Below, piece by piece: positions 151-41,736 of a stretch of 41,916 nucleotides of DNA. The DNA is from a virus. Position numbers and translations under genes: made by a program. Positions within the stretch are counted from its first letter, which is position 1. Each line of letters opens with the position of its first letter. The stretch lies in the UHGV virus genome UHGV-0326656. One strand, 5' to 3'. The notes below the pieces were generated by a model. It saw only the letters and a list, made by a program, of their open reading frames with translations, was not told the origin of the DNA and did not search any database.

Positions 151-724
151 CATCCGGCGCGGTGCTGGTATCCGTTGCCGTCACCGCGTCAATGTAATCC
201 AGCACAGCGTTTAGTCGGGTGGTTTCTGTCTGCGTCAGCTTCCTCCCGGCCTGCAATTTCAGTTGAATCAGACTAATGGAAGCCATTGCAGTATCAATTA
301 GTGACTGTCGCTGTACTTCTGCCGCTTTTACTGCGGCACCATATTGTGCCTCAGTATCTGTCACCCATTTCTCACCATCCCATTTATCGTATGGCGTTAA
401 TGGGACGATAGTGGTTGTATTTTCAGGGTAATCACCCGGAGCTGTGATTTCTTTTGATTCTCCTGTTTCAGTGCTATAGACAAATTCACCACGATGGTCT
501 GGCACATATATCCACGAGTTAAAATCTTCAGAACGGCAAATTGCATAACCAGTTTTGTATGGGCCAGGGGCATCTAAACAGGAACATGCCGGAATGCCGA
601 CACCAATGGCAAGATATTCTGTTGATGTGGAAATATATTCCCGCGTTTCACCATCATAATTATAAACGGTTATGTCTCCCGCTTTTATGGCAATGAGTTC
701 GTTATTTAAGACAACTTTATTCAT
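122..724 (-). CDS. tail fibre assembly protein, inverted-orientation copy (Tfa')
   Basis: 200-aa ORF about 85% identical to the 41134..41736 ORF; convergent with the + strand Tfa, as in Mu G / e14 P invertible segments. Confidence 0.8.
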   Translation of the reverse strand: MNKVVLNNELIAIKAGDITVYNYDGETREYISTSTEYLAIGVGIPACSCLDAPGPYKTGYAICRSEDFNSWIYVPDHRGEFVYSTETGESKEITAPGDYPENTTTIVPLTPYDKWDGEKWVTDTEAQYGAAVKAAEVQRQSLIDTAMASISLIQLKLQAGRKLTQTETTRLNAVLDYIDAVTATDTSTAPDVIWPELPEE

Positions 725-1179
725 CAGGCAGCCCTCACGATATAATTAAAGGCAATGTTACGAGGTCGGTTTTCGTTTGCAGTTGGAACAACTCTGGAAG
801 CATCGAATGTTACTCGCTTTGCATAACCACCTTTAATTGAATCCGATGAAGCATCTCCGATGACGCTGGTTGTAAAAACGCCAGAATCAGAAGGATAGGT
901 ATTGAACCTGACATCCACTAATGCACCAATTATATTTCGAATGGCATCGCCCTGTGATGAAAGCAAGCTACGGTTAGTATCTATTCCTCTTCCGTCATCC
1001 CAGCCACGAATAAACTCACCACGTAAATCTGGCAATTTATTTGTCGGATAAACTTTTGCCAGTTCCGGATACTCTTCGGCAGAAAAAGGCGCACCATTGC
1101 ATTTCAGCCAGCCTGTTGGCGGAGTGGCTGAAGGCCACGGAACAGGCACACCAACGGGTAATGCCGAACCTTCTCCCAA
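724..1179 (-). CDS. alternative tail fibre C-terminal (receptor-binding) segment; no ATG of its own, opens inside the crossover site
   Basis: Frame opens with TTG inside the gix-like site; Gly/Pro-rich tip sequence ending NIAFNYIVRAA; stop overlaps the Tfa' start. Confidence 0.6.
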   Translation of the reverse strand: MGEGSALPVGVPVPWPSATPPTGWLKCNGAPFSAEEYPELAKVYPTNKLPDLRGEFIRGWDDGRGIDTNRSLLSSQGDAIRNIIGALVDVRFNTYPSDSGVFTTSVIGDASSDSIKGGYAKRVTFDASRVVPTANENRPRNIAFNYIVRAA

Positions 1180-1607: not shown

Positions 1608-2603
1608 ATGAAAGGGATATATTATGAGAATACTCGAACCTCTATACCGGGGTGGATATCAAACCTTCATGAAACTCAAAGGTTTGGTTACGCTTATGAA
1701 ACAAGTACTCACTTTGTTCATTTATATGGTAAAGCTGAACCTTTTAATGTCATATCAGTTGGCCTTACCGCAATACAAGGTAAAAGTGGGACTCTAAATG
1801 ATTGGGTTATAAATACATTTGGAGCAACTAACATCCAAACATTACAAAATGATATCGGACATGTTGTTGAAGGTGTCTGGAGACCATCTTTATATTATAG
1901 CGATGACATTCAAGGTGCGTTGTTAGTTGATCCGTTCGAGAAAATGTCGTCAGGACAAGCTCTGCGCAATCTTATTAATAAACTCGATGAATTATTTTTG
2001 TACATTGAGCCAAGCATCACAGGTCTGAAAGCATATAGCCATAAATGCAGGGAGCTATTAATTTTGGCTTGTACAGAAGTTGAGAATCAGTGGGTGTCAC
2101 TGATAAAAAAAACAAACCTAAATAATGTAGGGGCTAGATATACAACTAGGGACTATGTACGGCTTGCAGATAAATGTTTTTTAAAAGAATACAAGGTGAA
2201 TTTTAAAAATTACTCAGGCTTAAGAGATTTCACACCATTTTTATCTTGGGTTCCGACTGCCTCTACTGGCTCTTTACCTTGGTACGATGCTTATAATGGA
2301 ACTAAGCATGATAGGGAAGCAGGTTTTAATCTCGCATCATTGGAGAATGTGATGGATGCCTTATCTGCTTGTATAGTATTGTATTGTGTTAAATATGGAC
2401 CTTATGATTTGGTGTCTGGTGGGGATCTGCTTTCAGGAACGTTTAACGAGCATTTTTCTCTTAGTTTCATAAATAGTGATAAAAGTAGCTATTACGTTCC
2501 CGAATTGAATTTTAACGCAAACGCAATAACAGACTTGTGTGTGATTGACTGTTATAGAGAAAAACTCAACAAAGCATGGGTTACAGAACCTCTTGTTTTA
2601 TAG
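1608..2603 (+). CDS. hypothetical protein, 331 aa, AT-rich orphan (candidate accessory/defence gene)
   Basis: Long ORF with GAGGTGA ribosome-binding site 7 nt upstream; markedly AT-rich versus flanks; no family recognised. Confidence 0.65.
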   Translation: MKGIYYENTRTSIPGWISNLHETQRFGYAYETSTHFVHLYGKAEPFNVISVGLTAIQGKSGTLNDWVINTFGATNIQTLQNDIGHVVEGVWRPSLYYSDDIQGALLVDPFEKMSSGQALRNLINKLDELFLYIEPSITGLKAYSHKCRELLILACTEVENQWVSLIKKTNLNNVGARYTTRDYVRLADKCFLKEYKVNFKNYSGLRDFTPFLSWVPTASTGSLPWYDAYNGTKHDREAGFNLASLENVMDALSACIVLYCVKYGPYDLVSGGDLLSGTFNEHFSLSFINSDKSSYYVPELNFNANAITDLCVIDCYREKLNKAWVTEPLVL

Positions 2604-2897: not shown

Positions 2898-3206
2898 GTG
2901 ACTCACATGACAAAAACAGTATCAACCAGTAAAAAACCCCGTAAACAGCATTCGTCTGAATTTCGCAGTGAAGCCCTGAAGCTTGCTGAACGCATCGGTG
3001 TTACTGCCGCAGCCCGTGAACTCAGCCTGTATGAATCACAGCTCTACAACTGGCGCAGTAAACAGCAAAATCAGCAGACGTCTTCTGAACGTGAACTGGA
3101 GATGTCTACCGAGATTGCACGTCTCAAACGCCAGCTGGCAGAACGGGATGAAGAGCTGGCTATCCTCCAAAAGGCCGCGACATACTTCGCGAAGCGCCTG
3201 AAATGA
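2898..3206 (+). CDS. insE: IS3 transposase OrfA (HTH subunit)
   Basis: [42 protein letters not shown]... recognised as IS3 OrfA. Confidence 0.9.
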
Positions 3207-4069
3207 AGTATGTCTTTATTGAAAAACATCAGGCTGAGTTCAGCATCAAAGCAATGTGCCGCGTGCTCCGGGTGGCCCGCAGCGGCTGGTATACGTGGTG
3301 TCAGCGGCGGACAAGGATAAGCACGCGTCAGCAGTTCCGCCAACACTGCGACAGCGTTGTCCTCGCGGCTTTTACCCGGTCAAAACAGCGTTACGGTGCC
3401 CCACGCCTGACGGATGAACTGCGTGCTCAGGGTTACCCCTTTAACGTAAAAACCGTGGCGGCAAGCCTGCGCCGTCAGGGACTGAGGGCAAAGGCCTCCC
3501 GGAAGTTCAGCCCGGTCAGCTACCGCGCACACGGCCTGCCTGTGTCAGAAAATCTGTTGGAGCAGGATTTTTACGCCAGTGGCCCGAACCAGAAGTGGGC
3601 AGGAGACATCACGTACTTACGTACAGATGAAGGCTGGCTGTATCTGGCAGTGGTCATTGACCTGTGGTCACGTGCCGTTATTGGCTGGTCAATGTCGCCA
3701 CGCATGACGGCGCAACTGGCCTGCGATGCCCTGCAGATGGCGCTGTGGCGGCGTAAGAGGCCCCGGAACGTTATCGTTCACACGGATCGTGGAGGCCAGT
3801 ACTGTTCAGCAGATTATCAGGCGCAACTGAAGCGGCATAATCTGCGTGGAAGTATGAGCGCAAAAGGTTGCTGCTACGATAATGCCTGCGTGGAAAGCTT
3901 CTTTCATTCGCTGAAAGTGGAATGTATCCATGGAGAACACTTTATCAGCCGGGAAATAATGCGGGCAACGGTGTTTAATTATATCGAATGTGATTACAAT
4001 CGGTGGCGGCGGCACAGTTGGTGTGGCGGCCTCAGTCCGGAACAATTTGAAAACCAGAACCTCGCTTAG
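3203..4069 (+). CDS. insF: IS3 transposase OrfB (DDE catalytic subunit)
   Basis: 288-aa ORF overlapping orfA, with integrase-core motifs (...[10 protein letters not shown]..., ...HTDRGGQY...). Confidence 0.9.
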
Positions 4070-4749: not shown

Positions 4750-5040
4750 AGACACGTCGTATGCAAGAACTTGCTGCGGCTGGATGGTGGACTTTCGATA
4801 GTGCGAGTATTGAATGATGTCCAGCCGTTATTGATTTTACGTATTTTTTGCATGAAAAGATTAGCACCTCATCCCACCGCTCCTCCATGATTTTACACCA
4901 CTGTCTCTAGAGCTCTGTGTGCCAGAAGCGGAAGTTCATACCTCTAAGTGGATATTTTGTTAAAATATGCCATCAAAATCCTTGCTACCTCATGGTTGAC
5001 AGTGATAAAAGTTGCACAAATTACTGAGAGAGAAATTACA

Positions 5041-5478
5041 ATGAGTGGAGATACCTCTGAGTTTCCTAATAAACTTCCCAGAAAGCCAATTGGTTGGCGT
5101 GAAGAATATAGTGATTTTACAGGTAGTATTATATTCTATATGATATTCCCGTTGCTTCCATTACTTTTTGAGTCAATTAACACAGGAACTCACCCTTCAA
5201 TACAATCATTAACAATTACTGCATCAATATACTCTTTTTCCATCGGTGTATCTTCTCGAGATAAAGCTATTTTTTGCTTAGGGATTTTTTGTGGTTTCAT
5301 TCTCGCTTATCTTTACGGTAAAGTTAGTGAGCCAAAAGTTATTATATATACCTGGTACTATGTAGTTACGGTGATACTACTGGCTGTAATATTTATATTT
5401 CATCTTCTCGAACGATTTAATAAACACGTGGTAGAATGTGAACCTGTTTTCTCCTTTAAGTTTACGAGAGGTATGTAA
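5041..5478 (+). CDS. hypothetical multi-pass membrane protein (alternative start at 4948)
   Basis: AT-rich ORF with several hydrophobic segments (FYMIFPLLPLLF, IFCLGIFCGFILAYLY, VVTVILLAVIFIF); perfect -35 TTGACA about 40 nt upstream; stop overlaps the next start (TAATG). Confidence 0.6.
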   Translation: MSGDTSEFPNKLPRKPIGWREEYSDFTGSIIFYMIFPLLPLLFESINTGTHPSIQSLTITASIYSFSIGVSSRDKAIFCLGIFCGFILAYLYGKVSEPKVIIYTWYYVVTVILLAVIFIFHLLERFNKHVVECEPVFSFKFTRGM

Positions 5479-5945
5479 TGGAGGATATTATATTTATGTA
5501 TGCTGGGTTGATAGTGTCTTCTTTAGCGGCAATTGTAGGCTTAGCTACATCTATCATGCATACTCGTAAAAAAGTTAAAGCTAATGAAGAGCTTGCAACT
5601 GAAATGGCAAAGAGCTTTAGTGAGCTTGAATCTATCAATAAAAGCATAGGGGATTTGGAAGCGACAATTAAAAGGATAGATGAAGATGAATTAAAGTTAA
5701 GAATAGCAATTGAATCTTTAAAGGAAATGACTTCTGATGAAAAAAAAGAATCTAGGGATATGTTGAAAAACATCGTTAATGATGAGGTGTTCATTAAAGT
5801 TCTTCTCGAAAGCTATAAAAAACTGGATACCCAGTCAAAGAAGGAGATTTATTTGACTTTTTCCAAGTCGACAGATAGAGGCCTTTATCGATATATAAAA
5901 AGAATAGCTTCATCAGTACTCGATAACTTAATGGTTAAAATATAA
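5478..5945 (+). CDS. hypothetical protein with N-terminal transmembrane helix and charged coiled-coil-like C-terminal region
   Basis: AT-rich; MEDIIFMYAGLIVSSLAAIVGLATSIM then K/E-rich heptad-like sequence; translationally coupled to the upstream ORF. Confidence 0.65.
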   Translation: MEDIIFMYAGLIVSSLAAIVGLATSIMHTRKKVKANEELATEMAKSFSELESINKSIGDLEATIKRIDEDELKLRIAIESLKEMTSDEKKESRDMLKNIVNDEVFIKVLLESYKKLDTQSKKEIYLTFSKSTDRGLYRYIKRIASSVLDNLMVKI

Positions 5946-6560: not shown

Positions 6561-7724
6561 TTACACATCATTAGTACCTTCCTTATTTTTTGACTGGGAC
6601 AAATTTGGGACCGATGGGTTCAGGATCGAGTCTATTTGCCGTGCGTGCTCGGTAAGGTGATTAGGTGCAAGGTGAGCATATCGACGAACCATTTCGATAG
6701 ACTCCCAGCCTCCCATTTCCTGTAACACTGACAACGGGACTCCGGCTTGAACCAGCCAACTTGCCCAGGTGTGTCTCAGGTCGTGAAATCTGAAATCATC
6801 AATACCAGCCCGTCTCAGCGCCGCTTTCCAGGCTGTGTTTGCGTCATACCGCATCTTCCTTACTGTTGGCGCTTTCGTTCCGTCTGGTTTGGTACAGCTT
6901 TCCTTGTACACAAATACCCAACGGTGATGATTCCCGATTTGTTTTTTCAAAACGCGACATGCAGTATCATTCAGCGCAACGCCGATTGCGCGGTTTGATT
7001 TACTCTCTTCCGGGTTTATCCATGCCACTCGGCGCTGCATATCTATTTGTTGCCATTCAAGGTTGATGATGTTCGAGCGTCTTAAGCCTGTTGCCAGTGC
7101 AAATTCAACAACAGACTTTAATGGCTCCGGACATTCATCAATCAGCCTTTGTGCTTCATGGGGCTCCAGCCAGCGGATCCGTTTATTCTTTGGTTGAGGC
7201 ACTTTAATAATTGGTGCCTTATCCAGCATTTTCCATTCACGCTCTGCGGCTCTTAGTAGGGCCTTTATAAATGAAAGATGCGTAGCCTTCGTTGCAACGG
7301 ACGCTGGTTTTGGCGTGTATTCTGGAACAGGTTTCCCTTTTTTTCTGCATGCTTCTGCCCTGAGTTTCCAGTTTTCCTCATGACGCCGGTTCGTCATTTT
7401 CTGCATTGCTGAATAAATTTTTGATTCAGTAATGTCTCTTAGTTGCATTCCTGCGAAATGTTGAAGCCAGAATCCGATCCGGCTTTTGTCATCGTCCAGT
7501 GATTTTTTATGTGCTTTCTCTTCAAGCCACCTGACACATGCTTCCTCGAACGTTATATCAGGTATTTCACCAAGTTTACTGACCCGCCATGCTTCAGCCT
7601 TTAGCTTGTCATGGAGTTCTGTCGCCTGCCTTTTGTCCTTTGTTCCAAGAGACTGTTTAAATCTTTTACCGTTCGGCAATGTGAAACTGGCGTACCATAT
7701 TTCACCTCTGCGGAAGAGTGACAT
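6561..7724 (-). CDS. int: tyrosine-type phage integrase
   Basis: 387 aa with C-terminal catalytic region ...[39 protein letters not shown]; adjacent to tRNA fragment. Confidence 0.95.
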
Positions 7725-7951: not shown

Positions 7952-8295
7952 TATTTCACCTCTTGCTGTGACATTGTTGAAAAACGGATACCAGCTCGTT
8001 GCTGCCAGACGATCCAACCGAGAGTCATATCCCATGCCATGTATTCGTTATCGCCGTTTTTTGCTCTCCGACGATCGACTGTTTTACCGAAACGCTTTTC
8101 CATAAATAATTCATAGGCTGCGCGTTCATCTGGCTCAACTTCCAGAGATGCCAGTGCAATCCGTGCCAGTTCTAAATCATTTTCAAGCTCAGCGCGAATC
8201 TCAGCGAATGCACTCTGTGTTAAGGCGAACTCAATGCTCTGCACTTTATTCCGTGCGCGCTCAAGCAGTGCATGGTAGTTAATTTCGGTTGTCAT
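7951..8295 (-). CDS. hypothetical phage protein
   Basis: 114-aa ORF in the leftward early operon, stop overlaps xis start. Confidence 0.6.
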   Translation of the reverse strand: MTTEINYHALLERARNKVQSIEFALTQSAFAEIRAELENDLELARIALASLEVEPDERAAYELFMEKRFGKTVDRRRAKNGDNEYMAWDMTLGWIVWQQRAGIRFSTMSQQEVK

Positions 8296-9170
8296 ACCCC
8301 TACCTCTTCGAATTCCAATTCCAATTGATCACCCCAGATTTCACATGACTCTGAACACGAACCGGTATCGAATCGCCTGGCCTGTACCATCGCCTGATAC
8401 AAATTTCTGTAGTCGCTGTTGGCAGACATTCTGGCAATTCCGTCAAGCGTCAGGTGACCACGGTACATAATGTCTTTACCTGTTCTGCGATGACCATCCC
8501 TGACGTGTTTGCCTGTAACCAGCTCATTAAAAACTCGCATCAGACCTGGTTCGTCTTTACATGCAAGCCCCAGCTTTTGCGTTGACTTTTTGATGCAGAA
8601 AACACAGTTCCCGAGATGCTCCGGGATTTGCAAATCAAAAGGTTGTTTTCGCCACCACCGGATAACATCCGACTTATCAAAATCTGACAGCTCGGCAAGA
8701 TACCGGACGCCCGATTTCGGTTTCAGCCTACGGGGTTCGTCTGCACGAATACCCAGCCATGTGATGTAATTACCTCGCCCGAAATGGTTATCGCAGTATT
8801 TCGTGAAAGGGATGAGTTTTAGCCTGTCAGTACAGAACGCGCCGCCGATGTATGGCGTGCCGTACTTTTTAACCATGTCCATAAACGGTTTAAGCACCGG
8901 CATTCGTGTCTGAATATCCTTTGGCTCCCATTCTGTATAACCATTTGGCTGCCCAAGCTCAGGATTTATATCGACCTGTAACACAGTTAGTGGTATGTCC
9001 CAGAGCTTTACAACCTCCCGGATAAAGCGGTATGTCAGCGGATGTTCGCAACCGGTATCCATAAAGATGTAGCAGACGTTATTGCCAGCCTTTCTTTGTT
9101 CTTCCATCAGGTGAACAAGATATGCGGATGTTCTCCCGCCAGAAAAACTAACTACATGAGTTATGCACAT
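8292..9170 (-). CDS. PAPS reductase-like (PP-loop ATP pyrophosphatase family) phage protein
   Basis: SFSGGRTSAYLVH PP-loop motif near N-terminus; start taken at MCITHVV... (the upstream in-frame extension overlaps the neighbouring gene). Confidence 0.7.
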   Translation of the reverse strand: MCITHVVSFSGGRTSAYLVHLMEEQRKAGNNVCYIFMDTGCEHPLTYRFIREVVKLWDIPLTVLQVDINPELGQPNGYTEWEPKDIQTRMPVLKPFMDMVKKYGTPYIGGAFCTDRLKLIPFTKYCDNHFGRGNYITWLGIRADEPRRLKPKSGVRYLAELSDFDKSDVIRWWRKQPFDLQIPEHLGNCVFCIKKSTQKLGLACKDEPGLMRVFNELVTGKHVRDGHRRTGKDIMYRGHLTLDGIARMSANSDYRNLYQAMVQARRFDTGSCSESCEIWGDQLELEFEEVGV

Positions 9171-9697
9171 TTGCGTAATTCCGATAACTCGTTGAAGCGT
9201 TCCATAAACATCCCGTAGGCATGGCCCGGTGCCAGTGGAATAACTTTGAACATCTCTGTTGCCGGGATACCTTCCAGTACAGGCCATAAAGAGCCATCAT
9301 CAAGCCCGAGATCACGGCGTTCGGTTGCCAGCATAATGAGATCGGCATATTTCACTGGCGTGCTCATAACAGGAGGTAACCCGTATTTCTCACGGATTAC
9401 TGCATCTATTTTTTCTTCCATCCGTTTATAGTCAGGAAGAAGGCGTTTCAGTGGTGCGGGGATGTCCTGGCAATACGCTTCTGTTGCATCATGCATTAAC
9501 GCTTCAAAAGCAAACTCCTGCGGCACCAGCTGGCTGCAAAGCACCGCATGTTGGGCGACACTGTAGAAGTGAGAAAGATGACCGGCAAAGCGACAGATAT
9601 TTGAAAGGGAAACCGCGATATCGTTAATCACGATGTCGTCTTTATTTATCTTGTCATAATAAAAATGCTTCCCGGAAAAAGTTTTAATAAATGACAT
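9161..9697 (-). CDS. HD-domain phosphohydrolase (YfbR/YfdR-like 5'-deoxynucleotidase)
   Basis: 178 aa from MSFIKTF... with GGAG ribosome-binding site 6 nt upstream; HD-type motifs (...FAGHLSHFYSVAQHA..., ...LMHDATEAY...). Confidence 0.6.
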   Translation of the reverse strand: MSFIKTFSGKHFYYDKINKDDIVINDIAVSLSNICRFAGHLSHFYSVAQHAVLCSQLVPQEFAFEALMHDATEAYCQDIPAPLKRLLPDYKRMEEKIDAVIREKYGLPPVMSTPVKYADLIMLATERRDLGLDDGSLWPVLEGIPATEMFKVIPLAPGHAYGMFMERFNELSELRKCA

Positions 9698-9824: not shown

Positions 9825-10649
9825 TCAGGCGGTGAAAGTACCAATAAAGGTTTCTACTTTGCTGTCTTTGAATTTCTCAACAAGCAGATCACGAAATTCG
9901 TTAGCCATATCTTCCTGCACTGCTTCCAGCTGAATAATGCGCAGAACCAGTACAGGACGATCGCCAGTGATAATGCTGAGGCGTAATTTAAACGGACGTT
10001 CTTTCAGACCTTCAAACGGAACGCATTTAAATTCAAATGCCACTGGCATAATGTCTTTGGTCTTCGCTTCGACAGATTCCATCAGGGAGCGTTTGCCGCT
10101 GAAGTCATTATCTTCAAAATCAGCGGTCTGGTTTGCTTCAATCGTGATTTTACGGATTGCCGCAGCCGCTTTTGTTGCCTGAATGGCGTCACCATTAGCA
10201 TCAAAGCCCACAAGGTAGTCGGCCCAGTCTTCAATCCATTCTGCCAGTGACTTCTGGGAGTTACGCTCGCCGTTAACAGACAACAGAGCAGAGAACGGTG
10301 CTGTCTTTTTCAGTTTGAGTGTGGCGGTGTTATCTGCGTGACCTGGTTCATCAATAGTACCCAGGTTAAGCACACTGACGGCACGCATATTATCAGCATC
10401 GATAAAGCAGCGGGTGCCTTCATCTGCAAGATCTTTAGAATAACGGGTAAAGTCATCGATGCTGGCAGTGGAAAGCGCACCACGGAAACGGAAGCGATTT
10501 AAATTAAATTTTTCCAGATCATGAATGCGGAAATTCTCAGGCAATGCCACAGCATCGGCACCAATCTTACTGATAATTTCATTAACACCCTGAGCAGAAA
10601 TAAGGGCATGGATTTGATTAATTGCGGTTGCGTCTAAGTTCTGAGACAT
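9825..10649 (-). CDS. DUF2303 (YfdQ-like) phage protein
   Basis: 274-aa ORF; length and gene neighbourhood (next to the HD protein) match the CPS-53 yfdQ-yfdR pair as remembered. Confidence 0.55.
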
Positions 10650-18408: not shown

Positions 18409-19161
18409 ATGAACCTTGAAGCCTTACCGAAATATTACTCCCCGAAATCTCCAAAACTGAGCGATGACGCACCGGCGACAGGCTCTGGTGGTTTAACGAT
18501 TACGGATGTGATGGCTGCGCAGGGGATGGTGCAGTCGAAAGCACCGCTTGGGTTTGCCTTATTCCTGGCAAAAGTTGGTGTTCAGGATCCTCAGTTTGCG
18601 ATTGAAGGTCTGCTCAATTACGCGATGGCACTGGATAACCCGACATTGAATAAATTGAGTGAAGAAACCCGGCTACAGATCATTCCTTACCTTGTGAATT
18701 TTGCCTTTGCTGATTATTCCAGGTCTGCGGCAAGTAAGGCTCGCTGTGAGCATTGTGCTGGTACTGGATTTCATAATGTATTGCGCGAAGTGGTGAAACA
18801 CTCCAGAAGCGGGGAGTCTGTTATCAAGGAAGAGTGGGTGAAGGAACTATGTCAGCATTGTCATGGTAAGGGAGAAGTCAGCACAGCGTGCAGAGGGTGT
18901 AAGGGTAAAGGTATTGTCCTGGATGAAAAAAGAACCCGGCTTCATGGTACGCCTGTTTATAAGATTTGTGGGCGTTGCAATGGAAAACGGTTTAGTCGTT
19001 TACCAACCACACTGGCGCGGCATCATGTCCAGAAACTGGTACCAGACCTGACGGATTATCAGTGGTACAAAGGATATGCAGATGTCATTGATAAACTGGT
19101 TACAAAGTGCTGGCAGGAGGAATCTTACGCTGAAGCACAATTGAGAAAGGTGACAAGATAA
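18409..19161 (+). CDS. late-gene antitermination protein Q
   Basis: 250 aa, MNLEALPKYYSPKSPKLSDDAPATG... with Cys-rich zinc-binding C-terminus; immediately upstream of the late region. Confidence 0.8.
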   Translation: MNLEALPKYYSPKSPKLSDDAPATGSGGLTITDVMAAQGMVQSKAPLGFALFLAKVGVQDPQFAIEGLLNYAMALDNPTLNKLSEETRLQIIPYLVNFAFADYSRSAASKARCEHCAGTGFHNVLREVVKHSRSGESVIKEEWVKELCQHCHGKGEVSTACRGCKGKGIVLDEKRTRLHGTPVYKICGRCNGKRFSRLPTTLARHHVQKLVPDLTDYQWYKGYADVIDKLVTKCWQEESYAEAQLRKVTR

Positions 19162-19363: not shown

Positions 19364-20149
19364 ATGTATGTTTTTGAGTTAATCAAGCCAGGCAGTAATC
19401 TTAAGTTTGAAAACAGAGAGTTAGAATGGACGTTTAATAACTTATTATCCCATTTAGAAACTGCATTTTATGATGCTAATGTAGCATTAAATTTATTCGA
19501 ACAGGAAAGAACTAAGAATAACAGTAAATTCGATAATATTTCTCAGACATGGCAAGCTGATGTACAGAAACGACAAGCACTGGAAATGCTGGTTCGTAAA
19601 GAGTTTGGTTATCAACCTTATGAATATTCAGAACAGGTTTTTTCAGAGGTCGAGCTACGTCTAAAAAGAGAAAAATGGAATAACGGTGAATATCCGTTGG
19701 CTCATCAACACAGATTGATCTTCTTACATGCAAAATCATTTCTCTACGCTTTGGATGCTATTGATAAATTTTTAAAGGTAATTTCAAAAGAAAATGGCGC
19801 GCCAGAGAACATTAAAAAATTGCATGAACAGCTTTCTAAAGACTTTCCGGATTTAAGAAAGGTAAGGAATTCAGCTCAACACATGGAAGACAGAGTTCGT
19901 GGGCTTGGTGCAGAGAAAGAACCAAAGCCAATAAAACTCAAACCTGTAAATAATATTCATGTTGTTGCACCTCAGGGGGCATTGATGTTGAATAACTTAT
20001 TCGGAACTAAATTTGGGTGCACTATGGCTGATGGCTATTATGGTGAAGTAGATATTTCGACAGAGTCTTTGGCAAAGTTGCAAAATTTAATCCAAAAAGT
20101 TTTTAATTCCTTCAGTTGGGAAGGACCAAAGCAACACCTTCCCCGATAA
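19364..20149 (+). CDS. hypothetical protein, 261 aa, AT-rich moron with an Rx4H (HEPN-like) motif
   Basis: Lies between Q and the holin; motif RNSAQH; followed by its own terminator. Confidence 0.6.
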   Translation: MYVFELIKPGSNLKFENRELEWTFNNLLSHLETAFYDANVALNLFEQERTKNNSKFDNISQTWQADVQKRQALEMLVRKEFGYQPYEYSEQVFSEVELRLKREKWNNGEYPLAHQHRLIFLHAKSFLYALDAIDKFLKVISKENGAPENIKKLHEQLSKDFPDLRKVRNSAQHMEDRVRGLGAEKEPKPIKLKPVNNIHVVAPQGALMLNNLFGTKFGCTMADGYYGEVDISTESLAKLQNLIQKVFNSFSWEGPKQHLPR

Positions 20150-20168: not shown

Positions 20169-20196
20169 AGCCGCCAAATAATTGGCGGCTTTTTTA
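20169..20196 (+). terminator. rho-independent terminator after the post-Q moron
   Basis: GCCGCCAA-ATAA-TTGGCGGC followed by TTTTTT. Confidence 0.8.
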
Positions 20197-20238
20197 TTTC
20201 ACAGTACCCGCAAATATCGCGAGGTGAGAGATGACGAA

Positions 20239-20565
20239 ATGCCTCATAACCCAAATACCTGGCTGGACTTGGTCCAGAGCTGGTGGCGTGGAGACACACC
20301 GCTGGGCGCAGTGATTATGTCGATTGTTATGGCTGGCTTGCGCATTGCATATTTTGGCGGTGGTGGGGGCTGGAAACGAAAAACACTCGAGATTTTGCTC
20401 TGTGGTGCTCTGACGCTGACTTTTGCATCCGCTCTTGAGTATGTCGGATGGCCTAAATCTCTTTCTGTTGCCATTGGTGGTGGCGTTGGGTTGATCGGTG
20501 TCGATGCTATTCGTGGGGCTGCAATGAGTGTAATCGGTAATAAGTTTGGTGGCTCTAAGGAGTAA
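20239..20565 (+). CDS. holin
   Basis: Two or three hydrophobic helices (AVIMSIVMAGLRIAYFGG, LEILLCGALTLTFASAL, SVAIGGGVGLIGV), charged C-terminus, directly upstream of the endolysin; the longer ORF in the track begins inside the terminator. Confidence 0.75.
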   Translation: MPHNPNTWLDLVQSWWRGDTPLGAVIMSIVMAGLRIAYFGGGGGWKRKTLEILLCGALTLTFASALEYVGWPKSLSVAIGGGVGLIGVDAIRGAAMSVIGNKFGGSKE

Positions 20566-21632: not shown

Positions 21633-22007
21633 TTAAAGACTATTTAGGAGACTCTGAATAATAGGCCATAAAGTTAATGTGTTTGCACCAGCTGAGTAAA
21701 ATCGCTCCATCAGTTGTAGAGGTGTTGATGACTGATTAAACTTGATATCATTTAAAATGTCGTATATTTCTTGTAGCTTCTCTGCACCAAGTTTATCGTT
21801 AATTTCACTTAAGTTATTTTGTATGGCGATTTCTGCTTCTTTTATAAGCCGAACTGTTTCTGCTGAGTAATGAATATTGTTGGAAAGAAAAGTATTAGCT
21901 GAATCAATAATTTCATAACCAACATCAGCACCAAATGATTTGTTTCCAATTATTTTGATGTTTTCGCATCCCTCAATGCGATAAGCAACGGTTTTCTTTT
22001 CACTCAT
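21633..22007 (-). CDS. hypothetical protein, 124 aa, AT-rich reverse-strand moron
   Basis: Minus-strand ORF between Rz1 and HNH, the slot lambda uses for bor; AT-rich flanks; no signal peptide or recognisable family. Confidence 0.55.
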   Translation of the reverse strand: MSEKKTVAYRIEGCENIKIIGNKSFGADVGYEIIDSANTFLSNNIHYSAETVRLIKEAEIAIQNNLSEINDKLGAEKLQEIYDILNDIKFNQSSTPLQLMERFYSAGANTLTLWPIIQSLLNSL

Positions 22008-32422: not shown

Positions 32423-32571
32423 CGGCTGAATACCTCACTGATCGCTTCTTTGACTGCGCCAGCTACTGGCGCATTAATCCCTTAGAATTGCTGAATATGC
32501 CGATCAGTGAAATTCCCTTGCTGGTCAGTCAGGCAAACAGGATAGAGCAGGAGAAACGCACACATGGCTGA
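32153..32571 (+). CDS. tail assembly chaperone, long form made by programmed -1 frameshift at T_TTT_TTC (32404-32410)
   Basis: Slippery heptamer in the zero frame near the end of the short form; -1 frame stays open (FFPPGLTAEYLTDRFF...) to 32571, overlapping the tape measure start. Confidence 0.6.
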
Positions 32572-34396
32572 ATTTGAGCTTAAGGCGTTGATCACCGGTG
32601 TCGACAGGCTTTCTCCCGCGCTGTCGAAAATGCAAAAGAAAATCCGGGGATTTAAACGCCAGGCGGAAGAAGCGTCACAGGGTGGGCTGGCGCTTGGTGG
32701 CGGACTGGCAGCGGGTCTGACGCTTTCCCTGAAATCTTATGCCGATCAGGAAAACGCCGCCACCGGGCTGAAAGTCGCCATGATGGATGCGAACGGCGAG
32801 GTTGGAAAGAGCTTTCAGGACATCAATAAACTGGCTATTGGCCTGGGTAACCAGCTACCCGGTACAACGGCTGATTTCCAGAACATGATGCAGATGCTGG
32901 TGCGTCAGGGGATCCCGGCAGAAAACATTCTTGGTGGTGTGGGTAAAGCGACAGCTTATCTTGCGGTACAACTGAAAAAAACACCGGAAGCGGCTGCTGA
33001 GTTTGCTGCAAAGATGCAGGATGCTACCGGAACGGCGTCAGAAGACATGATGGGGCTGTTCGACACTATCCAGAAGGCGTTTTATCTGGGCGTTGACGAT
33101 ACCAACATGTTGTCCTTCTTCACTAAAACCAGTTCTGTTCTGAAGATGGTGAATAAGGACGGACTTCAGGCTGCACAGAGCCTTGCCCCTATCAGCGTCA
33201 TGATGGATCAGATGGGGATGAACGGGGAGTCGGCAGGTAATGCCCTGCGAAAAGTTATCCAGTCCGGATTAAGCGTTAAGAAAATCAGGGACGTCAATAA
33301 AGTCATGGCCCGCCAGAAACTCGGGGTACAGCTCGATTTTACTGACGGCAAAGGAAGTTTTGGCGGTCTTGATAACATGTTCAGGCAACTGGCAAAGCTG
33401 CGAAAACTGACCGACGTTAAGCGAACAGGTGTACTTAAGGCAATATTTGGTGATGATGCCGAAACCCTTCAGGTGGTCAATGCACTAATCGATAAAGGAA
33501 AGGATGGCTACGATCAGATCCAGCAGAAGATGAATAAACAGGCCAGCCTGAATAAACGTGTTCAGGCCCAGCTTGGTACGCTGTCCAACCTGTGGGAGGC
33601 AATGACGGGGACCGCAACTAACGGCCTTGCGGCTATTGGTGGCGCATTTTCTGGTGACGCCAAAAATATCACGCAATGGCTGGGGGAGTTAGGGGAAAAA
33701 TTCACGAAGTTTGCGGATGAAAATCCCCGGGTTATTCGCGGCGTCGTCGGGCTTGCTGCCGGTCTTGCGATTCTGAAACTGGGATTGATGGGCGTTGGCG
33801 GTGCCATCAGTATTGTCAGCAGGATCATGTCGATGACGCCGATTGGAATGATTGCGACGGCGATAGCCCTGGCTGCGGGATTAATTATCACTAACTGGGA
33901 TGTTGTCGGACCTTATTTCAAGAAGCTCTGGGAAACCATTGGTCCTTATTTTGAGGCTGGCTGGGAACTTCTGAAGAAGGTTTTTGCCTGGTCGCCGCTG
34001 GGGATGGTAATCAATAACTGGGGACCGGTTGTTAAGTGGTTTCAGGATATGTGGGACAAGCTGAAGCCAATTATTGAGTGGTTTACCGACAGTTCCGGTG
34101 ACACGGTCGATGCCATTAACTCTGCGCAGTGGGGCGCGGGTGCTTATGATGCTTATGGGACGGGAATACTGGCGCGGGGATACACACCTTATCAGGCGGT
34201 AGATCCGGCTCAGTCAAACAACGCCTCCGATGCCACAGGCTCGAATCCCTTCATGATTAATAAAGCTACCGCGCCAAAAGTTGATGGTGAGATCAAGGTA
34301 TCATTTATAAATATGCCACCAGATATGCGGGTTACGGAAACACGCTCCAGTGGCATTGATATAAATCACGATGTTGGCTATACCCGATTTTGGTAG
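32564..34396 (+). CDS. tail tape measure protein
   Basis: 610 aa, Ala/Gly-rich with hydrophobic stretches (...GLAAGLAILKLGLMGVGGAISIV..., ...MTPIGMIATAIALAAGLIITNW...); follows the chaperone pair. Confidence 0.85.
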   Translation: MAEFELKALITGVDRLSPALSKMQKKIRGFKRQAEEASQGGLALGGGLAAGLTLSLKSYADQENAATGLKVAMMDANGEVGKSFQDINKLAIGLGNQLPGTTADFQNMMQMLVRQGIPAENILGGVGKATAYLAVQLKKTPEAAAEFAAKMQDATGTASEDMMGLFDTIQKAFYLGVDDTNMLSFFTKTSSVLKMVNKDGLQAAQSLAPISVMMDQMGMNGESAGNALRKVIQSGLSVKKIRDVNKVMARQKLGVQLDFTDGKGSFGGLDNMFRQLAKLRKLTDVKRTGVLKAIFGDDAETLQVVNALIDKGKDGYDQIQQKMNKQASLNKRVQAQLGTLSNLWEAMTGTATNGLAAIGGAFSGDAKNITQWLGELGEKFTKFADENPRVIRGVVGLAAGLAILKLGLMGVGGAISIVSRIMSMTPIGMIATAIALAAGLIITNWDVVGPYFKKLWETIGPYFEAGWELLKKVFAWSPLGMVINNWGPVVKWFQDMWDKLKPIIEWFTDSSGDTVDAINSAQWGAGAYDAYGTGILARGYTPYQAVDPAQSNNASDATGSNPFMINKATAPKVDGEIKVSFINMPPDMRVTETRSSGIDINHDVGYTRFW

Positions 34397-34424
34397 CCAG
34401 GATTCCCCTCACAGGTATTGCTGG

Positions 34425-34452
34425 TTGTAAGTCATAAATAGAGTGATAGAAT
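34425..34452 (+). promoter_or_regulatory. sigma70-like promoter for the tail-module moron
   Basis: TTGTAA, 16-bp spacer, TAGAAT; about 35 nt upstream of the 34488 start. Confidence 0.55.
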
Positions 34453-34487
34453 TAATGCACATTTAGAAAAATGTTAATAGGCGAAAA

Positions 34488-35018
34488 ATGAAAGGCTATA
34501 TCACAGCAAGTGTAATTCTTGGAGCAGCGGCTATTTTTTCATCTCTCATAATCTCTGGCAACATCTCCTTTAAAGATGAACATATTATTCAGTTATCTGG
34601 AGGAGCCATAAAACTTGGTGATGTTTATAAAGAAAATAAATTGATAAGTGCAAAGATTATTTTTCCAGATAATCAGGGTGAACAGATTCTTGTTGTCGAC
34701 GGCAATCCTGAAAACTTTAAGGAGGATTTTCAGGAGAAATTAAATAAAGTAATAAAAACTTTAAATGCGTCAAAGAAAAAAGATGAAGAGAAAGTTAGCC
34801 TGGATAATTTAAGTGTTATTGAAGAGTCTAAACTAGAGCTCGTTTCTGCGGTGCGTTACTCTGCTCAGTATGTTCCTATGTTTACTCTGACGCTGGACAA
34901 AAAAGAAATTACCATGCCTAAAAATACGGTAATATTTCCATTTGCCAGCGATGAAACAGCTAAGTATTTAAATGAACAACAGCAAAAGTATAAAGATTCG
35001 TTGTTTCTGACTCGCTAA
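34488..35018 (+). CDS. hypothetical membrane-anchored protein, 176 aa, AT-rich moron
   Basis: N-terminal signal/anchor (ITASVILGAAAIFSSLIISG); own promoter and terminator; interrupts the tail gene cluster. Confidence 0.65.
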   Translation: MKGYITASVILGAAAIFSSLIISGNISFKDEHIIQLSGGAIKLGDVYKENKLISAKIIFPDNQGEQILVVDGNPENFKEDFQEKLNKVIKTLNASKKKDEEKVSLDNLSVIEESKLELVSAVRYSAQYVPMFTLTLDKKEITMPKNTVIFPFASDETAKYLNEQQQKYKDSLFLTR

Positions 35019-35036
35019 TTAATAAAATTCATTACA

Positions 35037-35066
35037 AGGCCACCTTCTAATAGGTGGCTTTTTTAT
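35037..35066 (+). terminator. rho-independent terminator after the tail-module moron
   Basis: GCCACC-TTCTAATA-GGTGGC followed by TTTTTTATTTT. Confidence 0.8.
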
Positions 35067-35079
35067 TTTCGGAGTGTAT

Positions 35080-36408
35080 ATGACGTGGAAAGACAGGCTT
35101 CAGGATGCGTCATTTCGAGGTGTGCCGTTTAAGGTTGAAGAAGAAAGTGCGGGAACCGGTCGCCGTGTGGAAACACATGAATACCCGAACCGCGACAAGC
35201 CCTATACCGAAGATCTGGGAAAAGTCACTTTCCGCCCGTCCATCACAGCTTATGTGGTGGGAGATGACTGCTTTGACCAGCGCGATCGCCTGATTGAAGC
35301 GCTGAATAAACCAGGTCCCGGCACGCTTGTCCACCCGACATATGGTGAGCTGAAAGTCTGTGTTGACGGGGAAGTTCGGGTCAGCACATCGAAAAGTGAA
35401 GGGCGTATTGTCCGCTTTGACCTGAAGTTTGTCGAAGCGGGAGAACTCTCTTACCCCACATCAGGCGTGGCGACGGCGCAGACGCTGATGTCATCCTGTT
35501 CTGCACTGGATGACTGCATCAGTGACAGTTTCAGTAGTTTCAGTATCGATGGCGTGGCAGATTTTGTGCAGAACGACGTCGTCGGTAATGCCAGCACAAT
35601 GCTTGGGTATGTTTCTGATGCGATGAAAGTGGTGGATTCTGCCGTATCGGATGCCGCCAGGCTGTTGCAGGGGGATATCTCGGTACTTCTGCCGCCGCCA
35701 TCGTCAGGCAAAAATTTCGTTGAGCAGGTGCAGAAAATGTGGCGTACCGGGAAACGCCTTTATGGTAACGCCAGCGACCTGGTCACCATGATCAAAACGC
35801 TTTCCGGTGTCAGCCTCGGCAGCGATCTGCAACCGCGCGGCGTCTGGAAAACGGACAGTAAAACCACCGCCACGGCTACGCAGCAGCGTAACGTGGTTGC
35901 CAGCACCCTTCGTACGACCGCAATCAGCGAAGCGACGTATGCCGTCACCCGATTGCCTGCGCCAACAACTTCCGCGGTGATGCAGAATGCCGCAGTGGGG
36001 CAGGCAACAACACCTGCGCAGAGCACTGGCTGGCCTTCCGTCACGCATCCGGCACTGAACAATGCACCGGCGGTGAAAAACACAGTTGACCTGCCGACGT
36101 GGGAAGAACTGACTGACATTCGCGACACACTGAATACGGCAATTGATAAGGAGTTGTCCCGTACAACCAGTGATGCGCTGTTTCTGGCGCTGCGCCGGGT
36201 GAAAGCAGATCTGAATGCGGATATCAACACGCGCCTTGAACAGTCTGCACGGATCATTCAGCGCGCACCGGATGAGGTTTTACCCGCGCTGGTGCTGGCG
36301 GCGACCTGGTTTGATAACGCGGCGCGTGACGCGGACATTATTCGGCGTAATGCCATTACGCATCCCGGCTTTGTGCCGGTGATCCCTCTGAAGGTGCCAG
36401 TGCAATGA
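35080..36408 (+). CDS. DNA circulation protein (Mu N / gp43-like)
   Basis: MTWKDRLQDASFRGVPFKVEEESAGTGRRVETHEYPNRD... characteristic N-terminus; GGAG ribosome-binding site. Confidence 0.85.
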   Translation: MTWKDRLQDASFRGVPFKVEEESAGTGRRVETHEYPNRDKPYTEDLGKVTFRPSITAYVVGDDCFDQRDRLIEALNKPGPGTLVHPTYGELKVCVDGEVRVSTSKSEGRIVRFDLKFVEAGELSYPTSGVATAQTLMSSCSALDDCISDSFSSFSIDGVADFVQNDVVGNASTMLGYVSDAMKVVDSAVSDAARLLQGDISVLLPPPSSGKNFVEQVQKMWRTGKRLYGNASDLVTMIKTLSGVSLGSDLQPRGVWKTDSKTTATATQQRNVVASTLRTTAISEATYAVTRLPAPTTSAVMQNAAVGQATTPAQSTGWPSVTHPALNNAPAVKNTVDLPTWEELTDIRDTLNTAIDKELSRTTSDALFLALRRVKADLNADINTRLEQSARIIQRAPDEVLPALVLAATWFDNAARDADIIRRNAITHPGFVPVIPLKVPVQ

Positions 36409-40730: not shown

Positions 40731-41162
40731 ATGGAAAAGACATATTATTTTAATCCCTCTGATTCGGGATTTTATATTTCACCAGATAGCCAAACCATTC
40801 CTGAGAACGCTACGAAAATAAACTTTACTATTTATTCTGAGTTCGCAGGAGTTGCATGGCCTGATGGTAAAATACTTGGTTCAGATAAAAATGGTTTTCC
40901 AGCATGGCAGGATGCGCCACCACTTACCAGCGAAGAATTAATCTCAATCGCTGAATCAAATAAACAGCGATTAGTTAATCAGGCCAACGAATACATGAAC
41001 AGTAAACAATGGCCTGGTAAAGCGGCGATTGGTCGTCTGAAAGGTGAGGAACTGGCGCAATATAATTTGTGGCTGGATTATCTGGACGCACTGGAACTGG
41101 TCGATACTTCCAGTGCGCCAGATATTGAATGGCCTACGCCTCCGGCAGTTCAGGCCAGATGA
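40731..41162 (+). CDS. tail fibre assembly protein (Tfa)
   Basis: 143 aa immediately after the fibre gene; C-terminal 50 aa shared with the inverted copy. Confidence 0.85.
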   Translation: MEKTYYFNPSDSGFYISPDSQTIPENATKINFTIYSEFAGVAWPDGKILGSDKNGFPAWQDAPPLTSEELISIAESNKQRLVNQANEYMNSKQWPGKAAIGRLKGEELAQYNLWLDYLDALELVDTSSAPDIEWPTPPAVQAR

Positions 41163-41736
41163 CATCCGGCGCGGTGCTGGTATCTGTTGCCGTCACCGCG
41201 TCAATGTAATCCAGCACAGCGTTAAGTCTGGTTGTTTCTGCCTGCGTCGGTTTACGTCCGGCCTGCAATTTCAGTTGAATCAGACTGATGGAAGCCATTG
41301 CTGCATCAATCAGTGACTGGCGCTGTGCTTCTGCCGCTTCTACTGCGGCACCGTATTGTGCCTCAGTATCTGTCACCCATTTTTCACCATCCCATTTATC
41401 GTATGGCGTTAACGGGGCGATAGTGGTTGTATTTTCGGGATAGTCGCCTAGTGCTGTGATTTCTTTGGCATCTCCCGTTTCGGTGTTATAGACTATTTCA
41501 CCTCGATGGTCTGACACATATTCCCATGATTTTAAATCCACAGAACGGAAAATTGTATAACCAGCCTTATATGTACCAGGAGCGTCTAAACAGGAATATG
41601 CAGGGATACCGACACCAATGGCAAGATATTCATTTGAAGTGGAAATATATTCCCGTGTTTCGCCATCATAGTTATAGACGGTAATATTTCCCGCCTTTGT
41701 AGCAATAAACTCGCTATTTAATACAGCGTTATCCAT
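41134..41736 (-). CDS. tail fibre assembly protein, inverted-orientation copy (Tfa')
   Basis: 200 aa, convergent with Tfa; about 85% identical to the 122..724 ORF. Confidence 0.85.
   Translation of the reverse strand: MDNAVLNSEFIATKAGNITVYNYDGETREYISTSNEYLAIGVGIPAYSCLDAPGTYKAGYTIFRSVDLKSWEYVSDHRGEIVYNTETGDAKEITALGDYPENTTTIAPLTPYDKWDGEKWVTDTEAQYGAAVEAAEAQRQSLIDAAMASISLIQLKLQAGRKPTQAETTRLNAVLDYIDAVTATDTSTAPDVIWPELPEA

What the first reader, a model, noticed from the sequence alone, without database searches (positions are those of the whole stretch)
34425..35066. Membrane-anchored moron with its own promoter and terminator inside the tail gene cluster
Between the tape measure and DNA-circulation genes lies an AT-rich 176-aa ORF with an N-terminal signal/anchor sequence, a near-canonical promoter (TTGTAA-16-TAGAAT) and a strong terminator, so it is an autonomous cassette in an otherwise tightly packed late operon. 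Genes in this position in other phages (cor-type) block superinfection at the receptor. That role is inferred from location and topology only.
Basis: partly seen in the sequence, partly recalled or inferred. Interest (0 to 1): 0.65.

Follow-up and report, generated by a model that had tools for sequence, protein, structure and literature searches.

The report
Exported-protein moron beside tape-measure gene
An SfV-like E. coli prophage carries an optional, foreign-looking gene between two tail genes that encodes a membrane-anchored periplasmic protein of an uncharacterised family, most likely a lysogen protein that blocks incoming phages; the type of element is well known, but the protein family and the insertion hotspot have not been described.

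Summary
A real 176-aa gene (34488..35018, 34% GC against about 55% in the flanks) lies between the tape-measure and DNA-circularisation genes. A promoter-like site precedes it and a strong hairpin terminator follows it.

It is dispensable cargo. About 1,093 of 5,426 complete E. coli genomes have this slot, but only about 175 carry this gene. The isolated phages SfV, SfII, SfI and SfIV have an empty slot.

The slot is a hotspot. At least three unrelated low-GC cassettes occupy it in other strains, and each encodes an exported protein: one with a Sec signal, one lipoprotein, and one membrane-anchored OB-fold protein.

The protein belongs to an unnamed family (79 clusters, phrog_5485). It has an N-terminal anchor and a confidently modelled alpha/beta domain (pLDDT 91.5) with no match among solved structures. 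The domain is predicted to be periplasmic. Relatives at 30-58% identity keep the same slot in other Enterobacterales prophages. More distant relatives sit in another baseplate cluster, beside restriction-type genes, or, as a lipoprotein, in a lytic Pseudomonas phage.

It is not Cor-like: it has no cysteine or lipobox and no sequence similarity. The closest analogues are HK97 gp15 and T4 Imm, which act at the inner membrane to block DNA entry. That function is inferred, not shown. The promoter is not conserved among homologues, so expression in the lysogen is unproven.

The parts
32564..34396 (+). Tail tape-measure protein gene (610 aa), left border of the cargo slot. It has hydrophobic, channel-type segments at about aa 390-448.
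   Evidence: PF10145 9.8e-27 and phrog_28/17727; hydropathy.
34397..34487 (+). AT-rich leader of the cassette. It is not alignable with the 60-nt spacer of empty alleles.
   Evidence: Junction comparison with L007, L021, L008, L009 and L011.
34425..34452 (+). Sigma-70 promoter-like site, TTGTAA-16-(TG)a-TAGAAT, ending 35 nt before the ATG.
   Evidence: 9 of 12 plus TG. PWM score 12.2, reached by 46 of 2000 shuffles. Not conserved in homologues.
34478..34484 (+). Weak Shine-Dalgarno-like TAGGCGA, with its AGG 6 nt before the ATG. Homologues also have a purine-rich patch here.
   Evidence: Read from the sequence.
34488..35018 (+). Cargo gene encoding a 176-aa protein of an unnamed family (phrog_5485).
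   Evidence: dN/dS 0.078.
34491..34556 (+). N-terminal membrane anchor (aa 2-23, modelled as a helix). Probably an uncleaved signal-anchor with the N-terminus in the cytoplasm.
   Evidence: KD19 2.11. Positive-inside charge bias in 54 of 56 family members. No lipobox. Most homologues have Asp at the -1 position.
34560..35015 (+). Predicted periplasmic alpha/beta domain (aa 25-176). It carries the conserved N-I-I-x-T-x-x-G-x-V-x-L-G-x-V-Y-x-E motif and the invariant residues G44 and Y124.
35036..35072 (+). Intrinsic terminator: 10-bp stem, 6-nt loop, then TTTTTTATTTT. It runs into the ribosome-binding site of the next tail gene.
   Evidence: -15.6 kcal/mol, z = -6.0.
35080..36408 (+). DNA-circularisation / Mu gp43-like baseplate hub gene, right border of the slot.
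   Evidence: PF07157 4.3e-34 and phrog_184. Start codon as in the RefSeq annotation.
18409..19161 (+). Q antiterminator of the same prophage. It is the reason internal terminators should not block late tail transcription.
   Evidence: PF03589 1e-53. Read-through is inferred from established lambda-type Q biology.

Best explanation
This is a moron, an optional and horizontally exchanged cassette, sitting in a cargo hotspot between the tape-measure and gp43-like genes of an SfV-like temperate myovirus that has a lambdoid early region, an HK97-type head and a Mu-type tail.

Its product is a bitopic inner-membrane protein. One N-terminal transmembrane helix holds a roughly 150-aa alpha/beta domain in the periplasm.

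Most likely it is made in the lysogen from its own weak promoter, and also late in lytic growth by Q-dependent read-through. It would then act as a superinfection-exclusion factor at the genome-entry step: it would meet the tail-tip or tape-measure complex of an incoming phage in the periplasm or at the inner membrane and stop a DNA channel from forming. This is how HK97 gp15 and T4 Imm work.

Shown here: cassette structure, dispensability, hotspot, protein family, fold confidence, purifying selection.

Inferred: topology (from sequence rules and a lipoprotein homologue), expression in the lysogen, and the exclusion function.
For: Dispensable cargo:
- The slot flanks occur in 1,093 E. coli genomes; the cassette occurs in about 171-179.
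- SfII, SfI, SfV, SfIV and vB_EcoM-689R6 have an empty slot.

Hotspot:
- Three further unrelated low-GC cassettes occupy the same slot: a 164-aa Sec-signal protein, a 225-aa lipoprotein, and a 148-aa anchored PF12869 OB-fold protein on the opposite strand. They occur in 84, 54 and 58-79 genomes.
- Every cargo carries an export signal.

Separate history from the flanks:
- The cargo is >= 99% identical in 180 of 181 E. coli records, while the flanks differ by up to 6-7%.
- Between two Leclercia-type loci the cargo has dS 1.07, against 0.2-0.3 for the neighbouring genes, with dN/dS 0.078.

Recurrent link with tail-tip genes:
- Homologues at 30-58% identity keep the same slot in Leclercia, Citrobacter (59%; only the tape-measure side is on the contig), Edwardsiella and Lonsdalea prophages and in a metagenomic prophage.
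- A 30%-identical member sits between the hub-like and spike genes of a different baseplate type.

Periplasmic location:
- 54 of 56 family members show the charge bias expected for N-in, C-out.
- A remote homologue in phage ventosus has a lipobox in place of the anchor.

Precedents:
- HK97 gp15 is a moron next to the tape-measure gene with the same promoter-gene-terminator layout. It blocks injection from the inner membrane (PMC3594210).
- T4 Imm binds the T4 tape-measure protein (bioRxiv 10.64898/2026.03.06.709160).
- One family member lies beside a methylase and a ResIII-type gene.
Against: - There is no experimental or expression data.
- The protein gives no hit in PADLOC, Pfam, NCBIfam or PDB sequences. 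No fold match suggests a mechanism.
- The promoter is a 9-of-12 match and is not conserved. Several homologues have very short or promoter-poor leaders, which fits late co-transcription equally well.
- AT-rich DNA in E. coli is often silenced by H-NS (general knowledge).
- Distant family members sit beside ordinary chromosomal genes, a gluconate dehydrogenase and a thioredoxin. The family is therefore not restricted to phage-related settings.
- Tape-measure C-termini are 93-99% identical whatever the cargo (one lipoprotein-cargo allele is 84-87%), so there is no sign of co-variation with a target.
Confidence: 0.4

Rival explanations
1. A lysogenic-conversion envelope factor unrelated to phage defence. 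The periplasmic protein would improve host fitness, for example stress, serum or colonisation traits, in the manner of lambda Bor or Lom.
For: The cassette features and exported cargos are the same as for the best explanation. Distant family members occur as stand-alone chromosomal genes beside metabolic genes. Carrier strains come from many hosts and from the environment. Morons with such roles are documented (PMC3594210).
Against: There is no similarity to any known virulence or stress family. The repeated placement inside tail-tip and baseplate gene clusters of two different myovirus types is not explained by a generic host-fitness role.
Confidence: 0.2
2. A late-expressed accessory of the phage's own lytic cycle. 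It would be co-transcribed with the tail genes and act in the periplasm of the producing cell. It could stop progeny or sibling phages from wasting injections on the dying cell or its debris (as T5 Llp does), or it could modulate the envelope before lysis.
For: The gene is on the same strand as the late operon. A Q antiterminator is present. Homologues have leaders of only 34-69 nt, or overlap the next gene by 4 nt, and have no convincing promoter. A lipoprotein homologue exists in a strictly lytic phage.
Against: The function is dispensable for viable SfV-type phages. The E. coli allele does have an extended -10 promoter-like site. One alternative cargo in the slot is on the opposite strand, so it cannot depend on late transcription.
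Confidence: 0.17
3. A Cor- or Llp-type receptor blocker. The protein would reach the outer membrane and inactivate the receptor used by this phage and its relatives.
For: The protein is exported and encoded in a tail gene cluster. A remote homologue is a lipoprotein. One alternative cargo in the slot is a lipoprotein.
Against: This protein has no cysteine or lipobox. Most homologues have Asp at the -1 position, which argues against signal-peptidase cleavage, so it should stay in the inner membrane. tblastn against 50,697 phage records gives no match. SfV-type phages are O-antigen-dependent serotype converters (PMC3851460), whose receptor is normally masked by glucosylation genes elsewhere in the genome.
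Confidence: 0.07
4. A structural or assembly component of the tail that was misread as cargo.
For: It holds a conserved position between the tape-measure and hub genes in several genera.
Against: It is absent from plaque-forming relatives whose flanks are about 95% identical in DNA. It has a membrane anchor and foreign GC content. Unrelated genes replace it in the same slot, including one on the opposite strand.
Confidence: 0.03

Closest known systems
HK97 gp15 moron (superinfection exclusion; Cumby et al. 2012, reviewed in PMC3594210)
   Same: Both are single low-GC genes inserted next to the tape-measure gene of a Q-regulated late tail operon. In both, an intrinsic terminator follows the gene and abuts the next tail gene. 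Both have one N-terminal transmembrane helix and are absent from close relatives.
   Different: There is no homology (hhalign probability 0.3%). gp15 is 62 aa with a short, positively charged C-terminal tail. This protein is 176 aa with a large folded domain predicted to face the periplasm. gp15 lies upstream of the tape-measure gene of a siphovirus; this gene lies downstream of it in a contractile-tailed phage. Exclusion has been shown for gp15 and is only inferred here.
T4 Imm (and Sp), inner-membrane and periplasmic exclusion proteins of a contractile-tailed phage
   Same: These are membrane-anchored phage proteins that act at genome entry. Imm is reported to bind the tape-measure protein that forms the inner-membrane channel (bioRxiv 10.64898/2026.03.06.709160). 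The tape-measure protein here also has hydrophobic channel-type segments.
   Different: T4 is virulent and its imm gene is not in the tail cluster. Homology to Imm or Sp was not tested directly. Pfam, PHROG and the phage-genome search gave no link.
Cor (phi80, N15, HK022, T1) and T5 Llp receptor blockers
   Same: These are small exported proteins encoded among tail genes that protect the lysogen or the infected cell from superinfection.
   Different: Cor and Llp act on FhuA at the outer membrane, and Llp is a lipoprotein (general knowledge). This protein has no lipobox or cysteine, is predicted to be anchored in the inner membrane, and shows no sequence similarity to anything in 50,697 phage records.
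phrog_5485 / phrog_34391 (PHROGs, function unknown)
   Same: Full-length match, E = 3.8e-108, covering positions 1-176 of 176. This is the only database family that contains the protein.
   Different: The PHROG carries no annotation. This analysis adds the wider family (79 clusters), its topology, its fold model and its genomic settings.
Prophage defence hotspots (P2/P4 hotspots) and the Pseudomonas moron Tab
   Same: A fixed intergenic position in a conserved phage backbone holds alternative, horizontally exchanged cargo. Tab is a moron in a late operon that targets a tape-measure protein (PMC10884400).
   Different: All cargos here are small exported proteins, not cytoplasmic defence systems, and none hits PADLOC. 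Tab is cytoplasmic and blocks tail assembly, which a periplasmic domain could not do.

Membership tests
Moron (Juhala/Hendrix definition) | Extra DNA that is present in one phage and absent from otherwise syntenic close relatives. | tested here: met
   The slot is empty (60 nt) in SfII, SfI and SfV and in most of the 1,093 E. coli genomes with the same flanks. The cassette occurs in about 175 genomes.
Moron (Juhala/Hendrix definition) | Base composition different from the neighbouring genes. | tested here: met
   GC is 0.33-0.34 against 0.49-0.60. The same holds for homologues.
Moron (Juhala/Hendrix definition) | Own downstream terminator. | tested here: met
   Hairpin of -15.6 kcal/mol plus a T-run. 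Each forward-strand cassette has a different stem sequence. The empty slot also has a hairpin.
Moron (Juhala/Hendrix definition) | Own upstream promoter. | tested here: inconclusive
   A 9-of-12 match with a TG extension; 46 of 2000 local shuffles score as well. Not conserved in homologues.
Moron (Juhala/Hendrix definition) | Expressed from the repressed prophage. | not testable with these tools
   This needs RNA-seq, 5'-RACE or proteomics of an uninduced lysogen.
Cor / Llp-type receptor-blocking exclusion proteins | Sequence relationship to Cor or Llp. | tested here: not met
   tblastn of the protein against 50,697 phage records gives no match at E <= 1e-5. The only PHROG hits are families of unknown function.
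Cor / Llp-type receptor-blocking exclusion proteins | Outer-membrane targeting (lipobox for Llp-type). | tested here: not met
   No cysteine and no lipobox. A long hydrophobic anchor, with Asp at -1 in most homologues.
Cor / Llp-type receptor-blocking exclusion proteins | Blocks adsorption or receptor function. | not testable with these tools
   This needs adsorption assays.
HK97 gp15-type inner-membrane exclusion morons | Homology to gp15. | tested here: not met
   hhalign of the family profile against gp15: probability 0.3%.
HK97 gp15-type inner-membrane exclusion morons | Moron adjacent to the tape-measure gene, with a terminator abutting the next tail gene. | tested here: met
HK97 gp15-type inner-membrane exclusion morons | Inner-membrane protein that blocks DNA entry without blocking the receptor. 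| not testable with these tools
   Topology is predicted only. The phenotype is untested.
phrog_5485 / unnamed ~175-aa anchored family | Full-length profile match, an N-terminal anchor, and the G-x-V-x-L-G-x-V-Y-x-E motif. | tested here: met
   3.8e-108; 79 clusters; G44 and Y124 invariant.

The most novel reading that the evidence does not exclude
The tape-measure/gp43 junction of SfV-like phages is a dedicated hotspot for interchangeable, periplasm-facing anti-entry proteins. The 176-aa family would be a new class of exclusion factor whose novel-fold domain binds the tail tip or tape-measure channel of contractile-tailed phages. That would explain why the family recurs inside tail-tip and baseplate clusters of unrelated myoviruses, beside restriction genes, and as a lipoprotein in a lytic Pseudomonas phage.
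Probability: 0.25. Interest if true: 0.65.

Novelty: new member of a known kind. Interest (0 to 1): 0.45.

Why it matters
Morons in tail operons are a known source of prophage-encoded phage resistance and of host traits, but few have an assigned function, and none has been described for the widespread SfV-type prophages.

About a fifth of complete E. coli genomes have this slot, and about a third of those slots are filled with one of four or more exported proteins. If these are entry blockers, they would influence which temperate and therapeutic phages can infect many E. coli and Shigella strains.

The family would also offer a new periplasmic probe of how contractile-tailed phages cross the inner membrane. 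The experiments are simple: four small genes, and available cargo-free tester phages (SfV, SfII, SfI).

Tried and rejected
Searches that found nothing:
- Pfam, NCBIfam and PADLOC scans, and a PDB sequence-profile search, gave nothing for the protein.
- An Rfam scan of the region found only sub-threshold hits to the terminator hairpin.
- Literature searches found no description of this slot or of WP_000679479.

- The afdb50 library was not available.
- The second word-index homologue search with the broad alignment recovered few distant members.
- The viral-contig locus search failed because the alignment was too diverse.
- The genome-contig scan gave only two loci.

Homology tests that were negative:
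- HK97 gp15 is not homologous.
- The three alternative cargos are not homologous to this family.
- My first guess for the phage ventosus 'lipoprotein' gene (CNR37_00078) was wrong. The right gene is CNR37_00111.

Ideas tested and dropped:
- Promoter conservation across homologues: not found.
- Co-variation of cargo type with the tape-measure C-terminus: not found.
- A structural tail protein: rejected, because the slot is empty in viable relatives.
- A cytoplasmic Tab-like blocker of tail assembly: rejected on the predicted periplasmic topology.

Full report
**1. What is in the sequence**

The ORF at 34488..35018 (+) starts with ATG and encodes 176 aa. Its GC content is 0.33-0.34, while the flanking tail genes are at 0.49-0.60.

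The upstream gene (32564..34396) is a tape-measure protein (PF10145). The downstream gene (35080..36408) carries the DNA_circ_N domain of Mu gp43-type hub proteins (PF07157).

A promoter-like site, TTGTAA-16-TAGAAT with a TG extended -10, lies at 34425..34452.
- It matches 9 of 12 consensus positions.
- The generic scan finds no excess of such sites in the region.
- In a PWM test of the 121 nt upstream, 46 of 2000 shuffles did as well.

The terminator at 35036..35061 is strong: -15.6 kcal/mol, z = -6.0.

'Near-canonical promoter' is an overstatement.

**2. The element that carries it**

The window is an SfV-like temperate phage. It encodes:
- an integrase, a CI-type repressor and a Q antiterminator;
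- a holin and terminase;
- an HK97-type head;
- a Mu-type contractile tail.

The flanks of the finding are about 95% identical to those of Shigella phages SfII, SfI and SfV.

**3. The gene is optional cargo in a hotspot**

Among 5,426 complete E. coli genomes, 1,093 contain the slot flanks. Only 171-179 contain this cassette.

Most slots are empty. They hold a 60-nt spacer that still contains a hairpin and T-run. The isolated phages SfII, SfI, SfV and vB_EcoM-689R6 have this same spacer, and the SfII authors annotated it as a putative terminator. SfIV also has no gene there.

Other strains carry unrelated cassettes at exactly the same junction:

| Cargo | Size | Export signal | Strand | GC | Genomes |
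|---|---|---|---|---|---|
| This gene | 176 aa | N-terminal anchor | + | 0.34 | 171-179 |
| WP_001219112 (also in phage SKA5) | 164 aa | Sec-type signal peptide | + | 0.31 | 84 |
| WP_000866660 | 225 aa | lipobox (LLGGC) | + | 0.42 | 54 |
| WP_000734912, PF12869 OB-fold | 148 aa | N-terminal anchor | - | 0.37 | 58 full, about 21 partial |

The alternative cargos show no homology to this family. All have an N-terminal export signal.

The left boundary of every cassette is the tape-measure stop codon. The right boundary is the T-run just before the GGAG ribosome-binding site of the gp43-like gene. Each forward-strand cassette brings a different hairpin.

**4. Evolutionary behaviour**

Within E. 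coli the cassette is >= 99% identical in 180 of 181 records, although the flanks differ by up to 6-7%.

Between two Leclercia-type loci, purifying selection is clear but the cargo has its own history:

| Gene | dN/dS | dS |
|---|---|---|
| Cargo | 0.078 | 1.07 |
| gp43-like | 0.157 | 0.29 |
| gp44-like | 0.055 | 0.21 |

Against the window, the cargo is 41-55% identical in protein, the gp43-like protein about 68% and the gp44-like protein about 82%.

**5. The protein family**

The word-index search found only close relatives plus Leclercia and Lelliottia proteins at 52-58% identity. None has a Pfam domain or a name. tblastn against 50,697 phage records found nothing. PHROGs places the protein in phrog_5485, function unknown.

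An exhaustive profile search found 79 clusters, of which about 60 are full length at 166-203 aa.
- All full-length members start with a hydrophobic segment.
- This is followed by the motif N-[IV]-[IL]-x-T-x-x-G-x-V-x-L-G-x-V-Y-x-E.
- G44 and Y124 are invariant.

With the 56-sequence alignment AlphaFold2 gives a confident model (pLDDT 91.5, pTM 0.76). It has an N-terminal helix at residues 2-23, then an antiparallel sheet packed by two long helices.

**6. Topology**

In 54 of 56 family members the N-terminal flank is more positively charged than the flank after the hydrophobic segment. The means are +2.0 and -0.6. This is the pattern expected when the N-terminus is in the cytoplasm and the rest is outside.

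The window protein has no cysteine, and only 2 of 56 members have a chance lipobox. Most homologues have Asp where the -1 residue of a signal-peptidase site would be, so the segment is probably an uncleaved anchor. The lipoprotein homologue independently argues that the domain works outside the cytoplasm. All of this is prediction, not measurement.

**7. Genomic settings of relatives**

| Relative | Identity to window | Setting |
|---|---|---|
| Leclercia (several loci) | 53% | same slot |
| Metagenomic prophage | 55% | same slot |
| Citrobacter MAG | 59% | directly after the tape-measure gene; the contig ends inside the homologue, so the downstream side is not seen |
| Edwardsiella anguillarum | 41% | same slot |
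| Lonsdalea | 33% | same slot, with two extra small ORFs |
| Metagenomic prophage | 30% | same slot |
| P0041 | 30% | different (Pam3/E217-like) baseplate cluster, between hub-like and spike genes, in a low-GC island |
| P0100 | 20% | beside an N6/N4 methylase and a ResIII/TnsA-like gene |
| P0083 | 24% | island with an integrase |
| P0046 | 31% | beside gluconate dehydrogenase genes |
| P0065 | 22% | beside a thioredoxin gene |

The family is therefore mobile, is not confined to phages, and is repeatedly captured next to tail-tip genes.

**8. How it most likely works**

The phage has a Q antiterminator. By established lambda-type biology, internal terminators do not stop late transcription, so the cassette can sit in the tail operon without harm and would be co-transcribed late. 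In the lysogen it could be expressed only from its own promoter, for which the evidence is modest.

Three considerations point to action at the genome-entry step:
- The protein is anchored in the inner membrane and faces the periplasm.
- All other cargos in the slot are exported.

The precedents are these:
- HK97 gp15 is a moron beside the tape-measure gene that blocks injection from the inner membrane (PMC3594210; layout confirmed).
- T4 Imm has now been reported to bind the T4 tape-measure protein.

I put this reading at about 0.4. The rivals are:
- a host-fitness envelope factor (0.2);
- a late lytic-cycle accessory (0.17);
- a Cor-type receptor blocker (0.07);
- a misread structural protein (0.03).

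**9. Comparison with known systems**

The element meets the moron definition on presence/absence, composition and terminator. The promoter criterion is inconclusive, and expression cannot be tested here.

It is not a Cor or Llp family member, because it shows no similarity and has no lipobox. It is not a gp15 homologue (hhalign probability 0.3%). It may still work like gp15 or Imm.

**10. Verdict**

This is an ordinary kind of element, a tail-operon moron, carrying an uncharacterised exported protein family. Two features were not found described in the literature searched:
- a polymorphic hotspot whose alternative cargos are all exported proteins;
- the family's recurrent placement next to tail-tip genes.

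Interest is moderate at 0.45. Novelty: new member of a known kind.

Noticed in passing
window 19364..20149 (+): A 261-aa ORF at about 34% GC lies between the Q antiterminator (18409..19161) and the holin (20182..20565). This is the classic lambdoid moron position. It has no Pfam or PADLOC hit.
   Followed up: partly
window 21633..22007 (-): A 124-aa ORF on the opposite strand sits in a 35%-GC island between the lysis genes and the HNH/terminase genes. It has no Pfam or PADLOC hit.
   Followed up: partly
window 1608..2603, 4948..5945 and 2898..4069: Three low-GC ORFs (331, 176 and 155 aa) without Pfam domains flank an IS3-type transposase (rve domains), upstream of the integrase at 6561..7724 (-). 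This may be further cargo at the prophage end.
   Followed up: partly
window 8292..9287 (-): An early-region gene has a PAPS-reductase domain and a PADLOC SspD-like match (3.4e-14). It lies near a DUF2303 gene (9825..10649).
   Followed up: no
L002 10013..11808 (also L003-L006): Leclercia-type relatives carry two extra genes (503 aa and 94 aa, no Pfam hit, 41-48% GC) between the gp43-like and gp44-like genes. This is a second cargo slot in the tail module, and it is empty in the window.
   Followed up: partly
L028 4637..5330: In Lonsdalea prophages the family member is followed by two more small ORFs within the same slot, before the shared terminator and the gp43-like gene.
   Followed up: no
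L007 801..860; L021 913..951: Cassette-free alleles, including phages SfII, SfI and SfV, keep a hairpin plus T-run (-10.2 kcal/mol) between the tape-measure and gp43-like genes. It could be a scar of cassette loss or a landing site for cassette exchange.
   Followed up: partly
window 122..1179 (-) and 41134..41736 (-): Both ends of the window carry 200-aa minus-strand ORFs. The one at the start is a tail-fibre assembly gene (Caudo_TAP), with a collar-domain gene beside it. The one at the end was not scanned; the same position in the related EC1515 prophage is annotated tfaE. This suggests an invertible tail-fibre segment like that of e14, or a neighbouring prophage remnant.
   Followed up: no
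L032 1..3657: A distant family member (P0100) lies directly downstream of an N6/N4 methylase and a ResIII/TnsA-like gene, which is a defence-island-like setting.
   Followed up: no
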